Source: a virus
Taxonomy: Duplodnaviria > Heunggongvirae > Uroviricota > Caudoviricetes
Direction: 5' to 3' (one strand)
DNA: 34,486 nucleotides
IMG/VR virus record: IMGVR_UViG_2645727868_000009
Shown here: positions 16,340-26,967 of the stretch, piece after piece
How positions within the stretch are numbered: position 1 is the first letter of the stretch
Layout: each line of letters begins with the position of its first letter
The notes under the pieces: generated by a model
Database searches by the model: none
What the model was told of the DNA's origin: nothing
Seen by the model: only the letters and a program-made list of their open reading frames with translations
Program-made: the position numbers and the translations under genes

Positions 16340-16356
16340 AGGGTGTTCAGCACCCT
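16340..16356. promoter_or_regulatory. Palindromic motif AGGGTG-TTCAG-CACCCT upstream of gene I (copy 1 of a shared element)
   Basis: Perfect 6-bp arms with 5-bp spacer; embedded in a 29-bp block (16328-16356) that recurs at 24488-24516. Confidence 0.5.
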
Positions 16357-24497: not shown

Positions 24498-24516
24498 GGG
24501 GGTGTTCAGCACCCCC
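24498..24516. promoter_or_regulatory. Palindromic motif GGGGGTG-TTCAG-CACCCCC upstream of the lysis genes (copy 2)
   Basis: Perfect 7-bp arms, same TTCAG spacer and same upstream GGGTACTG block as copy 1; located between the 95-aa gene stop and the holin start. Confidence 0.5.
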
Positions 24517-25351: not shown

Positions 25352-25357
25352 ATTATA
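25352..25357 (-). promoter_or_regulatory. Candidate -10 hexamer of a promoter for the Mor/C-family gene
   Basis: Perfect TATAAT on the minus strand 30 nt upstream of the Mor/C ATG, with a poor -35 region (CTGTAC at 17-bp spacing) and the terminator dyad just upstream. Confidence 0.4.
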
Positions 25358-25384
25358 GCCATACATGATCGCCTGTACAGACCA

Positions 25385-25409
25385 TAAAAAACCTCCGCGT
25401 TTGCGAAGG
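25385..25409 (-). terminator. Rho-independent terminator after the secreted-protein gene
   Basis: Minus-strand RNA forms a 7-bp stem with one G-U pair (CCUUCGC-AAAC-GCGGAGG) followed by UUUUUU; lies 13 nt after the stop at 25422. Confidence 0.6.
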
Positions 25410-25421
25410 TTTTTGTTCATA

Positions 25422-25760
25422 TTATTTTTTATTCTCGTTTATCAACACCAGGTATCCTCTGACATACTCCCATACTTTCTGGTTATCTGTTGGATGCACT
25501 TTTCGACAATCTATGGCTTCATTTCCATAATCGCCAATGTCAGCTTGGGCTTGTGTTAAGAGAATAACCTTCCTGAGAGCGCATCCTCTGATGGTATCCT
25601 TTGAAATATCATCCCAGCCATTCATGTATGAATAAGCCAGATTACGTTGTGCCTGATAATCGCCCTGTAATGTTTTTTTGACCAAATCTTCCTCTGAATC
25701 AGAAGCATGGGATATCCCTGTAAAACATAAAGTCAGAATAAGTAATAACAGTTTTTTCAT
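25422..25760 (-). CDS. Secreted/periplasmic hypothetical protein
   Basis: 112-aa ORF, ATG start with AAGGAGA RBS; N-terminal signal peptide (MKKLLLLILTLCFTGISHA); followed by an intrinsic terminator. Confidence 0.55.
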   Translation of the reverse strand: MKKLLLLILTLCFTGISHASDSEEDLVKKTLQGDYQAQRNLAYSYMNGWDDISKDTIRGCALRKVILLTQAQADIGDYGNEAIDCRKVHPTDNQKVWEYVRGYLVLINENKK

Positions 25761-26152
25761 TTACGTCTCCTTGAATCTTTAACCAGCGCCACCATCACTC
25801 CAAAAAGCTGTTCATCCGTCAGCCATTCGATCACATGTTGCTTATACATGTGAGATGCCAGTCCTTCTGCATACGCCCAGGAACGACCGGCATCAGCCAG
25901 CAACGCTTCAATTTTGGATAATACTGATTTTCTGCTCATTGCAACACGAGGGCGGCGACCTTTACCAGCGGGTGCCTTGCGCGGGAATCCCTGTTCGTGC
26001 ATGTATTCCCGGATGATGCGCAGTTCATCGAGATTGCAGCGTGTGGTGCTGGTTTTACCGGTCAGGCGGGCCAGCGTCTGGCGATAAAGGGCATCATCCC
26101 ACCCCAGATACGCCTGACCAGCTTTAATGGCCCCGATCATCTTTTTCAGCAT
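25757..26152 (-). CDS. gemA: GemA-like protein (Mu gp16-like)
   Basis: Start set to ATG at 26150-26152 (GAGGA 8 nt upstream); track ORF extends to 26251 via non-ATG start. Sequence YLGWDDALYRQTLARLTGKTS...LRIIREYMHEQGF recalled as GemA/DUF1018-like; location just upstream of Mor/C gene as in Mu. Confidence 0.65.
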   Translation of the reverse strand: MLKKMIGAIKAGQAYLGWDDALYRQTLARLTGKTSTTRCNLDELRIIREYMHEQGFPRKAPAGKGRRPRVAMSRKSVLSKIEALLADAGRSWAYAEGLASHMYKQHVIEWLTDEQLFGVMVALVKDSRRRK

Positions 26153-26402
26153 GTTTGTTATCCTCAAAACGCACGGTAAAACGTGAAACGCCAATCCCTG
26201 ACAAGAACGCAGCGGCACGGTCAAGAGACAACCACGTCTTGTAATCGCCACGGCGTTCCTGTAGAAAATAGGACACCCCGGCGCGGCGATTCACAGCGAA
26301 GAGATGATACACACCACCGAACCGCTGCACGACGAACTCATCCACGCCACCGCTTTCAGCCTGTTGCCGAAAGGCTGCCATTCCGATTTGTTCAATCTTC
26401 AT
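26124..26402 (-). CDS. Hypothetical early protein
   Basis: Start set to ATG at 26400-26402 (track start 26411 is TTG). Preceded immediately by two tandem palindromic units (see regulatory feature). Confidence 0.45.
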   Translation of the reverse strand: MKIEQIGMAAFRQQAESGGVDEFVVQRFGGVYHLFAVNRRAGVSYFLQERRGDYKTWLSLDRAAAFLSGIGVSRFTVRFEDNKHAEKDDRGH

Positions 26403-26405
26403 AAT

Positions 26406-26448
26406 GACCAAAACACTACTTTTGGCAGACCAAAAAACATGTTTTGGC
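26406..26448. promoter_or_regulatory. Two tandem 21-bp palindromic units (candidate operator)
   Basis: GACCAAAA-N-TTTTGGC at 26406-26426 and 26428-26448, each with perfect CCAAAA/TTTTGG arms and a 6-bp spacer; centres ~22 bp apart; they end 4 bp from the start of the 26124-26402 gene. Confidence 0.5.
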
Positions 26449-26556
26449 CTGCATTTGATTACTGTTTAAACAACTCGCGAAATCAGGAACGTCGAGTTTC
26501 GGTGATGGCTTTCATCGTGTTGTTGCTCCGTGATTCAGAAAATTTCATGCCGGGCC

Positions 26557-26967
26557 TCAGTATGTGAAATAGACAGTTGCCACGCCGTTATAGTGATCAA
26601 ACGACACGGCGTTTACCTCATAACTGGCCGGTAGCTTCGAGCCAAGAACGTATCCGGGCCACGTTTTCCATGGAATTTCTCTGCTCCCACTGTCGCCATA
26701 TACCGTACATCCCAGTGAGCCTACAGCTTCATAAGAACGCTTACCGCACGTTATGAATCCCAGATTTTGCTTACTGCTCTTAATGGTGATTGAGTGAACG
26801 CTGGCTGATGCATTAGCAGCACGCTGTGCCTGTTGGTTTGCGATATTCGCAGAGTTCGCAGCAGCTACAGCAGCCGTAGTCGCGGCGGTAGAGGCTACAA
26901 TAGCTGCTGAAGCATGCACTTGTTGGATATTCACCAACAATGCCGCGATAAAAATCATCTTCTTCAC
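26557..26967 (-). CDS. Secreted hypothetical protein
   Basis: 136-aa ORF; GTG start at 26965-26967 with AAGGAG 7 nt upstream (alternative ATG at 26958); signal peptide, Ala/Asn-rich low-complexity linker, Cys-containing C-terminal domain. Confidence 0.5.
   Translation of the reverse strand: MKKMIFIAALLVNIQQVHASAAIVASTAATTAAVAAANSANIANQQAQRAANASASVHSITIKSSKQNLGFITCGKRSYEAVGSLGCTVYGDSGSREIPWKTWPGYVLGSKLPASYEVNAVSFDHYNGVATVYFTY

What the first reader, a model, noticed from the sequence alone, without database searches (positions are those of the whole stretch)
26403..26556. Tandem palindromic operator-like units abutting the start of an early gene
Two 21-bp units, each with perfect CCAAAA/TTTTGG arms and a 6-bp spacer, lie head-to-tail with centres ~22 bp apart (two helical turns). 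They end 4 bp from the start codon of the 26124-26402 gene, within the 146-bp non-coding gap after the secreted-protein gene. This is the classic architecture for cooperative binding of two dimers. Because the units overlap the ribosome-binding region, they could alternatively form two RNA hairpins that occlude translation initiation. No known Mu site was recognised here.
Basis: seen in the sequence. Interest (0 to 1): 0.55.

Follow-up and report, generated by a model that had tools for sequence, protein, structure and literature searches.

The report
Conserved twin palindromes in Mu-like prophage
Two adjacent 18-bp palindromes just before a small early gene of a Mu-like prophage are real, are identical in every E. 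coli relative examined, and recur in an unrelated E. coli prophage, so they are most likely the binding site of a regulator that has not been identified.

Summary
CCAAAAcactacTTTTGG (26408-26425) and CCAAAAaacatgTTTTGG (26430-26447) lie 22 bp apart and end 5 nt from the ATG of the 92-aa gene. Chance expects 0.11 such sites in the window.

The element is under strong, sequence-specific constraint. In 27 relatives retrieved without using the motif, none of the 28 arm and linker positions vary, while 8 of 12 spacer positions do. All 58 E. coli genomes with this gene align here without gaps. The same arms, spacers and 22-bp period occur in an unrelated lambdoid prophage upstream of a Doc toxin module. 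Nothing else is similar there, and the two prophages share no protein.

It is not an operator of the prophage repressor or Ner, a transposase site or a Mor site. The whole prophage has no further copy, and the late promoters carry a different dyad (GGGTGctgaaCACCC).

The best reading (confidence 0.4) is a tandem operator for two dimers of an unidentified, probably host-encoded protein. It would sit at about +5 to +46 of a variable sigma-70-like promoter that is weak in this window. The main rival (0.25) is hairpins in the early mRNA that control translation or stability of the 92-aa/gemA message.

The parts
26430..26447 (.). Unit A (upstream unit in gene sense): CCAAAA-N6-TTTTGG dyad. Gene-sense reading CCAAAAcatgttTTTTGG.
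   Evidence: Arms invariant in 27 motif-independent relatives.
26425..26452 (.). Extended unit A, an 11-bp-arm palindrome GCAGGCCAAAA/TTTTGGTCTGC in gene sense. As RNA it is a -14.5 kcal/mol hairpin here and -18.4 in the consensus variant.
   Evidence: Flank variants A>G and C>T keep G.U pairs in the sense strand.
26426..26429 (.). 4-bp linker (TCTG in gene sense). Invariant in the E. coli clade. It fixes the 22-bp phase and forms part of unit A's extended stem.
26408..26425 (.). Unit B (start-codon-proximal): CCAAAAgtagtgTTTTGG in gene sense. Its 3' arm occupies the position where a Shine-Dalgarno sequence would lie, and no SD is present.
   Evidence: In diverged relatives this arm reads GAATGG/GATTGG (SD-like GGA).
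26403..26407 (-). 5-nt gap (TCATT) between unit B and the ATG.
26124..26402 (-). 92-aa gene directly downstream (phrog_7844, no Pfam). Predicted small alpha/beta fold with no recognisable DNA-binding domain. It overlaps gemA by 29 nt.
26458..26486 (-). Weak sigma-70-like hexamers CTGATT-17-AGTAAT (7 of 12, G at the second -10 position) ending 10 nt before unit A. Relatives have better promoters at this place: ATCACA-17-AATAAT and TAGCCA-16-CATAAT (9/12), TAAATA-17-GATAAT (8/12).
   Evidence: Not reported by the scan in this window.
26453..26490 (-). About 35 bp of partly conserved leader upstream of unit A. Homology among relatives with different upstream cargo begins here, so this is a mosaic junction.
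26557..26967 (-). Upstream neighbour (context only): a 136-aa signal-peptide-like protein gene. It is mobile cargo also found on about 90-100 kb plasmids and in phage Av-05, and is absent from many relatives that keep the units.
25757..26152 (-). gemA (gp16 family), the second gene of the unit that follows the element.

Best explanation
The element is a tandem operator. It consists of two 18-bp dyads (6-N6-6) whose centres are 22 bp apart, so they lie on roughly the same face of the DNA. Each dyad would be read through its outer hexamers CCAAAA/TTTTGG by a dimer of a sequence-specific DNA-binding protein, and two dimers would bind side by side.

The site lies at the very start of the 92-aa/gemA unit. 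In most relatives a sigma-70-like -10 ends 10-13 nt upstream, which places the dyads at about +5 to +46. Bound protein would then block promoter escape, or act as a roadblock to read-through from the early promoter, and so throttle expression of the 92-aa/gemA genes.

Shown here: the element exists, is under strong sequence-specific constraint, keeps its phase, and recurs in a second context.
For: (1) Constraint sits on sequence, not only on pairing. In 27 loci retrieved through the protein or by BLAST, not through the motif, 0 of 24 arm sites and 0 of 4 linker sites vary. In the same loci 8 of 12 spacer sites vary, with at least 10 substitution states. If changes fell evenly over the 40 bp, the chance that all 10 land in the spacers is (12/40)^10, about 6e-6. 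Spacer diversity is 0.19 per site against 0.147 at third codon positions.

(2) L057 is only about 83% identical in the surrounding nucleotides yet keeps every arm and linker base.

(3) All 58 E. coli genomes with this gene align without gaps across the element. Four of them fetched blind have perfect arms.

(4) A second context exists (L009, L099, L039): a lambdoid nin region upstream of a Doc/Fic toxin pair. It has 24 of 24 arm bases, both 6-bp spacers and the 4-bp linker length in common, but only 4 of 16 spacer and linker bases and no flank homology. tblastx finds no shared protein between the two prophages.

(5) Unit-wise behaviour. Six complete E. coli genomes carry exactly one unit where L009 has two. 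A single dyad is still a site for one dimer, but the long hairpin is lost.

(6) The 48-nt alignment of 21 sequences, reaching relatives whose downstream protein is only 62% identical, has no indel, so the 22-bp frame is kept.

(7) Perfect arms are found only in the E. coli-type phages. Relatives from Leminorella, Intestinirhabdus and unknown hosts have degenerate arms, and none of the 5,426 E. coli genomes carries a degenerate version. This fits a host-specific reader.

(8) Promoter-like hexamers sit at a fixed distance upstream in several variants, and L009 has TAACAT at the same -13 position.
Against: No binding protein was identified, and I could not match the motif to any E. coli regulator from memory or from the literature.

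The promoter is weak in this window (7/12, no A at -11) and absent in one relative, L076. The scan tool reports none here.

In L009 the site is about 115 nt from the next gene, with no scanned promoter nearby.

The host of L057 and of several degenerate relatives is unknown, so the host-tracking argument is incomplete.

The gene-sense RNA folds better than the antisense in 12 of 13 variants. A pure DNA site does not predict that.

The tandem motif is absent from the species-representative bacterial genomes apart from one unrelated Prevotellaceae hit, so no native chromosomal target of a host factor was found. Single units could not be searched.
Confidence: 0.4

Rival explanations
1. RNA element. 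The units are transcribed as part of the early mRNA, or as a 5' leader, and fold into one strong hairpin plus a weak one, or into a single roughly 18-bp interrupted hairpin. The structure sequesters the SD-less initiation region of the 92-aa gene, or serves as an RNase III / 5'-stabiliser element that sets the translation or half-life of the 92-aa/gemA message.
For: Sense-strand folds: hairpin A is -14.5 kcal/mol (window) and -18.4 (consensus), and the 65-nt region is -21.8, z -3.7. The sense strand is more stable than the antisense in 12 of 13 variants, with means of -21.3 and -18.9 kcal/mol. Two of the three variant types in the outer stem of unit A are G.U-compatible in the sense strand only. 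L058/L059 show a both-sides change, CCAAAT/ATTTGG. The element has stayed 2-10 nt from this gene's start codon through deep divergence, and its last arm turns into an SD-like GGA in distant relatives. Mu itself has a GC-rich stem-loop directly before the gemA SD.
Against: None of the 12 arm positions where a transition would give a tolerated G.U pair ever varies. The arms are identical in a second context whose loops and linker are randomised, which pairing alone does not explain. Stems are invariant and loops free, which from my own knowledge is the opposite of typical protein-recognised RNA hairpins. Hairpin B alone is only -3.8 kcal/mol. The one-unit form in six genomes destroys the long hairpin. 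In L009 the element is 115 nt from any start codon. There is no Rfam match above noise. Pair counts do not discriminate between the models, at 86% and 84% paired.
Confidence: 0.25
2. Phage-encoded reader. The operator is bound by the product of the gene it precedes (the 92-aa protein, or GemA), giving autoregulation. The copy in the lambdoid Doc module would then be a target in trans when both phages meet.
For: The element and the gene have stayed adjacent across all relatives. Arm sequence changes where the protein has diverged: 62-76% identical proteins go with degenerate or altered arms, including the symmetric CCAAAT/ATTTGG. Autoregulated small operons typically place dyads between the promoter and the start codon (my own knowledge).
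Confidence: 0.12
3. Terminator or insulator for antisense transcription. Unit A's extended stem followed by a T-rich tail on the + strand stops transcripts that run against the early genes.
For: In the E2348/69-type relative the scan calls a terminator on the antisense strand: 14 pairs, 5 of them G-C, with tail TTGGTTATTA. In this window the tail after the stem is ATTTGATT.
Against: In this window the stem has an A.C mismatch on that strand and the scan does not call it. No antisense promoter is evident. Unit B and the strict arm sequence are unexplained. L009 has no T-rich tail on either strand. The A/T-rich stem core is atypical for intrinsic terminators.
Confidence: 0.06
4. No regulatory role. 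The element is a self-maintaining palindrome or a recombination-prone junction (a cruciform or slippage hotspot, or a relic of a mobile mini-element) that marks a boundary where cargo genes are exchanged.
For: In both contexts block homology to other phages ends 15-35 bp from the units. Copy number varies by one 22-bp unit in the second context. As single-stranded DNA the region folds to -11.5 to -13.6 kcal/mol.
Against: Invariance between genomes at 28 positions, next to saturated spacers, requires purifying selection on sequence. No other copies were found in the prophage or in either host prophage, apart from a one-mismatch hit in L103 that is probably chance. Only two enterobacterial contexts turned up in three large collections, unlike dispersed REP/MITE-type repeats.
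Confidence: 0.07

Closest known systems
Tandem palindromic operators bound cooperatively by two dimers or a higher oligomer. From my own knowledge: E. coli ArgR ARG boxes (two 18-bp palindromes 3 bp apart), TyrR boxes (TGTAAA-N6-TTTACA), and toxin-antitoxin operators such as P1 phd-doc.
   Same: 18-bp 6-N6-6 dyads, two copies a few bp apart with centres about two helical turns apart. Conserved outer half-sites with free centres. One of the two contexts is directly upstream of a Doc-family toxin pair.
   Different: The half-site sequence CCAAAA matches none of these. No cognate protein was found, and the small protein encoded upstream of the Doc-family gene has no recognisable DNA-binding domain. 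In the Mu-like context no toxin-antitoxin pair follows.
Mor/C-family activator sites of phage Mu. From my own knowledge these are dyads with a 6-bp centre, roughly TTAT-N6-ATAA for C, placed at about -35 to -55 of middle and late promoters.
   Same: Dyad geometry with a 6-bp non-conserved centre, and a Mor-family gene lies 1.1 kb downstream.
   Different: The three late-operon upstream regions of this prophage carry another dyad, GGGTG-ctgaa-CACCC, and no CCAAAA-N6-TTTTGG. The element abuts a start codon instead of lying upstream of a -10.
Structured leaders that gate translation or processing in phage early mRNAs. From my own knowledge: the lambda N-leader RNase III hairpin, T7 RNase III sites, and the Mu com/mom translational hairpin.
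   Same: A stable hairpin or hairpins immediately before a start codon inside a phage early transcript, with interrupted dsRNA of about 18 bp possible.
   Different: No homology, no Rfam match, stems conserved in sequence, and the second context is not next to a start codon.
Mu repressor (c)/Ner operators and MuA binding sites.
   Same: MuA end sites are also about 22 bp long and adjacent to one another (my own knowledge). The element lies in a Mu-like early region.
   Different: There is no copy in the c/ner region or at the prophage end. Those regions use other repeats: CTTTCTTTTC-type in the c/ner region and GATTCTGGGCGGA-type repeats at the left end.

Membership tests
Operator of the prophage repressor (c) or Ner | Several related sites clustered between the divergent c and ner genes, with the same motif as the candidate. 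| tested here: not met
   The complete prophage (L030) was scanned with up to 2 mismatches. There are no sites in the c/ner intergenic region, which uses different repeats.
Mor/C-family activator site | The same dyad present upstream of the middle or late operons the activator switches on. | tested here: not met
   Late-operon upstream regions share GGGTGctgaaCACCC at window 24500-24513, 16341-16354 and 4425-4438. CCAAAA-N6-TTTTGG occurs only at 26408-26447.
Mor/C-family activator site | Position about -35 to -55 relative to a transcription start with a -10 but a poor -35. | tested here: not met
   The units end 5 nt before a start codon, so a start site 40 bp downstream would fall inside the ORF.
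MuA transposase end-binding sites / internal enhancer | Sequence related to the repeated sites at the prophage ends. | tested here: not met
   The left-end region shows GATTCTGGGCGGA-type repeats. Only an unrelated GACCAAAAACGC(T)8 near hit occurs at L030 4772.
Tandem-dyad repressor operator (generic) | Two or more dyads with conserved half-sites, non-conserved centres and fixed helical phasing. | tested here: met
   0 of 28 arm and linker sites are variable against 8 of 12 spacer sites. The 22-bp period is fixed in all contexts, with an ungapped alignment.
Tandem-dyad repressor operator (generic) | Overlap with, or position just downstream of, a promoter. | tested here: inconclusive
   Promoters scoring 9/12 end 10-13 nt upstream in the E2348/69 and L057 types, 8/12 in another type, but 7/12 in this window and none in L076.
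Tandem-dyad repressor operator (generic) | A cognate DNA-binding protein that binds the site. | not testable with these tools
   No candidate was found: there is no shared protein between the two contexts, and the downstream protein lacks a known DNA-binding fold.
Toxin-antitoxin operator (Phd/Doc type) | Located in the promoter of a toxin-antitoxin pair whose antitoxin has a DNA-binding domain. | tested here: inconclusive
   The L009/L039 copy lies upstream of a 59-aa protein plus a DOC_P1 toxin (TIGR01550, 1e-36), but the 59-aa protein has no detectable domain. The window copy precedes no toxin-antitoxin pair.
Intrinsic (Rho-independent) terminator | G+C-rich stem followed directly by a U run on the transcribed strand. 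| tested here: not met
   Not called on either strand in this window. The sense-strand tail is CAAAAGUA. It is called only on the antisense strand of one relative.
Conserved RNA structure / known RNA family | Match to a curated covariance model, or covariation that supports one structure over shifted controls and over DNA symmetry. | tested here: inconclusive
   No Rfam hit at gathering threshold, and the best E-value is 1.3. 86% and 84% of cells pair for the two models, with few both-sided changes. The models cannot be told apart from each other or from a DNA dyad.
Dispersed palindromic repeats (REP/BIME, MITE-like) | Many copies per genome in varied intergenic sites. | tested here: not met
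   There is one locus per prophage. Only two enterobacterial contexts were found in the viral, metagenome and species-genome scans.

The most novel reading that the evidence does not exclude
An uncharacterised E. coli-encoded (or third-party) dimeric regulator recognises CCAAAA-N6-TTTTGG. Through this shared operator it co-ordinately controls modules in unrelated resident prophages: the 92-aa/gemA unit, which lies directly upstream of the late-gene activator gene mor in a Mu-like phage, and a Doc toxin module of a lambdoid phage. That would be a host-to-prophage or cross-prophage regulatory link not described so far.
Probability: 0.2. Interest if true: 0.65.

Novelty: new member of a known kind. 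Interest (0 to 1): 0.42.

Why it matters
If the dyads are an operator, there is a DNA-binding protein in E. coli or its mobile elements whose site and regulon are unknown. It would act on the unit directly upstream of the late-gene activator gene of a Mu-like prophage family present in about 1% of complete E. coli genomes (58 of 5,426), including EPEC E2348/69, and on a Doc toxin module in another prophage. That would give a handle on how the early-to-late progression of these little-studied Mu-like prophages is controlled, and on cross-talk between co-resident prophages.

If it is instead an RNA element, it is an ordinary leader structure of local interest. Either way the finding corrects annotation: the 104-aa versions of the downstream protein in databases translate the palindrome.

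Tried and rejected
(1) Further copies near the repressor or anywhere else in the full prophage: none.

(2) Mor-family site: rejected, because the late promoters carry a different dyad.

(3) IHF: no consensus within 26380-26560.

(4) Rfam at gathering and at permissive thresholds: nothing meaningful.

(5) Literature searches for the motif and for Mu gem-region promoters or processing: nothing relevant.

(6) Downstream protein as a DNA binder. There is no Pfam hit, PDB sequence match or informative structural match, and the family has only 8 clusters among 1.84 billion representatives. The afdb50 library was unavailable.

(7) Other spacings and other hits of the motif. These are giant-virus arrays, GC-rich environmental contigs, a Prevotellaceae terminator-like site, and a large family of 22-bp arrays in ORF-poor, low-GC contigs with a retrotransposon-type endonuclease that is probably eukaryotic. 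I judged them all unrelated.

(8) Shared phage-encoded factor between the two contexts: none by tblastx.

(9) Separating the two-hairpin and long-hairpin models by pair counts: not possible because of the fourfold symmetry.

(10) Coding potential. An in-frame ATG in the CATATG spacer explains the 104-aa annotations, but it is absent or out of frame in other variants, so the element is not coding.

(11) More distant family members (L100, L101) lack the element.

(12) A whole-genome scan of E. coli for single units was not possible with the tools.

Full report
OBSERVATION

The window's genes in this region are on the - strand and belong to the early region of a Mu-like prophage. A 99.9% identical copy in E. 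coli SCAID WND1 shows the gene order: transposase, AAA ATPase, small early genes, the 92-aa gene, a gp16/GemA gene, a secreted-protein gene, a Mor-family gene, then holins.

The two units are exactly as described. On the + strand they read CCAAAAcactacTTTTGG (26408-26425) and CCAAAAaacatgTTTTGG (26430-26447), 22 bp start to start. The pattern, allowing one mismatch, occurs nowhere else in the 34.5 kb, where shuffles expect 0.11.

Some corrections apply. The gap is 154 nt, and 5 nt (TCATT) separate the last arm from the ATG at 26402. The upstream unit extends to 11-bp arms at 26425-26452. The four related arms also allow one long hairpin.

CONSERVATION

Relatives were collected in ways that do not depend on the motif: BLAST of the region against complete E. 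coli genomes, and protein-based retrieval from viral contigs.

- All 58 E. coli genomes that hold the gene align across the element without a gap.
- In 27 such loci (13 distinct sequences) none of the 24 arm sites and none of the 4 linker sites varies. Eight of the 12 spacer sites vary, with at least 10 substitution states.
- Spacer diversity (0.19 per site) is at least that of third codon positions in the adjacent gene (0.147).
- L057 differs from the E. coli versions at about 17% of surrounding nucleotides yet keeps all 28 positions.

Homology between relatives that carry different upstream cargo begins about 35 bp before the units. The 136-aa secreted-protein gene upstream in this window is itself mobile cargo, also found on about 90-100 kb plasmids and in phage Av-05.

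DEEPER RELATIVES

Homologues of the 92-aa protein at 62-76% identity still have a recognisable tandem element in the same ungapped 22-bp frame, 2-10 nt from the start codon. These come from Leminorella, Intestinirhabdus and several metagenomic Mu-like phages. Their arms are degenerate, for example CCAGAT...TTTTGG cgaa CCAAAA...GAATGG. Unit B's last arm becomes an SD-like GGA(A/T)TGG, and L058/L059 show a symmetric change in unit A, CCAAAT...ATTTGG.

None of the 5,426 complete E. coli genomes carries a degenerate version. Still more distant family members lack the element.

A SECOND, UNRELATED CONTEXT

Exact-pattern scans of viral, metagenome and species-genome collections found the Mu-like context plus one other enterobacterial context (L009, L099).

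That second context is the nin region of a lambdoid prophage. The units lie in the gap after a small ORF and before a 59-aa protein plus a Doc-family toxin (TIGR01550, 1e-36).

There the arms (24 of 24 bases), both spacer lengths and the linker length are the same as in the window. Only 4 of the 16 spacer and linker bases agree, and the flanks share nothing. The units lie about 115 nt from the next start codon.

Six complete E. coli genomes carry this context with exactly one unit instead of two. tblastx finds no protein shared between that lambdoid prophage and the Mu-like prophage.

Hits with other spacings or in other organisms are unrelated repeats: giant viruses, GC-rich environmental contigs, a Prevotellaceae site, and probable eukaryotic satellite arrays.

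WHAT IT IS NOT

- It is not the operator of the prophage repressor or Ner, and not a transposase site. The whole prophage has no other copy, and those regions use other repeats.
- It is not the site of the Mor-family activator. The upstream regions of three late operons share GGGTGctgaaCACCC (window 24500-24513, 16341-16354, 4425-4438).
- There is no IHF consensus, no Rfam family, and no terminator or promoter call in this window.

DNA SITE OR RNA STRUCTURE?

For an RNA structure:
- The sense strand folds well: hairpin A -14.5 kcal/mol here and -18.4 in the consensus, and the 65-nt region -21.8.
- The sense strand is more stable than the antisense in 12 of 13 variants.
- Two of three variant types in unit A's outer stem keep G.U pairs in the sense strand only.
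- The element has stayed at this gene's start codon.
- Mu has a GC hairpin directly before the gemA SD.

For a DNA site:
- The arms are conserved in sequence. Twelve arm positions could take a G.U-preserving transition and none does.
- The arms are identical in a context where everything unconstrained is randomised.
- Stems are invariant while loops are free, which from my own knowledge is the reverse of most protein-recognised RNA hairpins and the rule for dimer-bound dyads.
- The 22-bp phase is never broken by an indel.
- A one-unit form persists in six genomes.
- Hairpin B alone is marginal, at -3.8 kcal/mol.

Pair counting gives 86% and 84% paired cells for the two-hairpin and long-hairpin models, with a few both-sided changes. 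It cannot separate the models from each other or from DNA symmetry.

PROMOTER CONTEXT

In E2348/69-type relatives the scan reports ATCACA-17-AATAAT (9/12) on the gene-sense strand, ending 13 nt before unit A. L057 has TAGCCA-16-CATAAT (9/12), another group has TAAATA-17-GATAAT (8/12), and L009 has TAACAT at the same -13 position.

This window has only CTGATT-17-AGTAAT (26486-26458, 7/12, G at the second -10 position), and L076 has nothing. The units would therefore lie at about +5 to +46 of a promoter that varies in strength among relatives and is weak here.

VERDICT

The best-supported mechanism (confidence 0.4) is a tandem operator read by two dimers of an unidentified protein. That protein is probably host-encoded or from a third element, because no phage protein is common to the two contexts and perfect arms are seen only in E. 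coli-type phages. It would limit expression of the 92-aa/gemA unit.

A leader-RNA role is the main rival (0.25). Autoregulation by the downstream product (0.12), an antisense terminator (0.06) and a non-regulatory palindrome (0.07) are less likely.

It is a new member of a known kind, a dyad operator or leader element, not a new kind of system. Its interest lies in the implied unknown regulator shared by unrelated prophages.

Noticed in passing
window 24500-24513, 16341-16354, 4425-4438 (- strand): A 14-15 bp dyad, GGGTGctgaaCACCC, lies upstream of the holin, protease/scaffold and baseplate gene blocks. There are 3 copies where 0 are expected. It is probably the binding site of the prophage's Mor-family late activator.
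   Followed up: partly
window 25352-25421 (- strand): After the 112-aa signal-peptide protein gene (25422-25760) comes a terminator-like hairpin (AAAAACCTTCGCAAACGCGGAGGTTTTTT). It is followed by a good sigma-70-like promoter, TGTACA-16-TATAAT (25379-25352, 10/12), directly before the Mor-family gene. So mor may have its own promoter rather than relying on the early transcript.
   Followed up: no
window 26557-26967 and 25422-25760 (- strand): Two small genes with signal-peptide-like N-termini (phrog_8805, phrog_5882) are inserted on either side of the 92-aa/gemA pair. The first also occurs on about 90-100 kb E. coli plasmids and, at 79% identity, in phage Av-05. It is absent from many otherwise similar prophages, so it is mobile cargo.
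   Followed up: partly
window 26399-26440 (- strand): In this variant the spacer of unit A (CATGTT) supplies an ATG that opens a 13-codon reading frame, MFFGLPKVVFWSL. Its TGA overlaps the 92-aa start (ATGA). In relatives with a CATATG spacer the ATG is in frame instead, which explains the 104-aa annotated versions (for example P0001, with 337 member sequences). Neither is conserved, so these are probably annotation artefacts.
   Followed up: yes
L009 5942-5981 versus L039 about 3190-3210: The element upstream of the Doc toxin module exists with two units (metagenomic contigs L009 and L099) or with one unit (six complete E. coli genomes). The difference is a clean 22 bp.
   Followed up: yes
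L009 6056-6073: A partial third copy, TTGGccttgCCAAAAG, lies about 15 nt before the SD of the 59-aa gene that precedes the Doc toxin gene, 85 bp downstream of the tandem units.
   Followed up: no
L102 (phage Mu) 2694-2713: Mu has a GC-rich stem-loop, GGCGGTGttgcagCACCGCC, immediately before the gemA ribosome-binding site. It is a positional analogue of the element studied here, with an unrelated sequence.
   Followed up: no
L030 (NZ_CP082831.1) about 4660 and about 40470: In the near-identical E. coli genome the whole Mu-like prophage sits inside the major capsid gene of an HK97-type lambdoid prophage. Both flanking capsid and protease fragments are annotated as partial.
   Followed up: no
L064, L068, L071-L097 (metagenome contigs): A large family of 22-bp-period arrays, gatatCCAAAATAnnTATTTTGG with 3-5 or more units, lies next to a conserved TATGGCAAGCGGAATT... 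sequence. The contigs are low in GC and poor in ORFs, and one carries a retrotransposon-type endonuclease. They are probably eukaryotic repeats unrelated to the prophage element.
   Followed up: partly
L033, L034, L038 (viral contigs): Pairs of CCAAAA-N6-TTTTGG dyads with a 7-bp linker occur twice, about 3 kb apart, in GC-rich environmental contigs. Their function is unknown.
   Followed up: no
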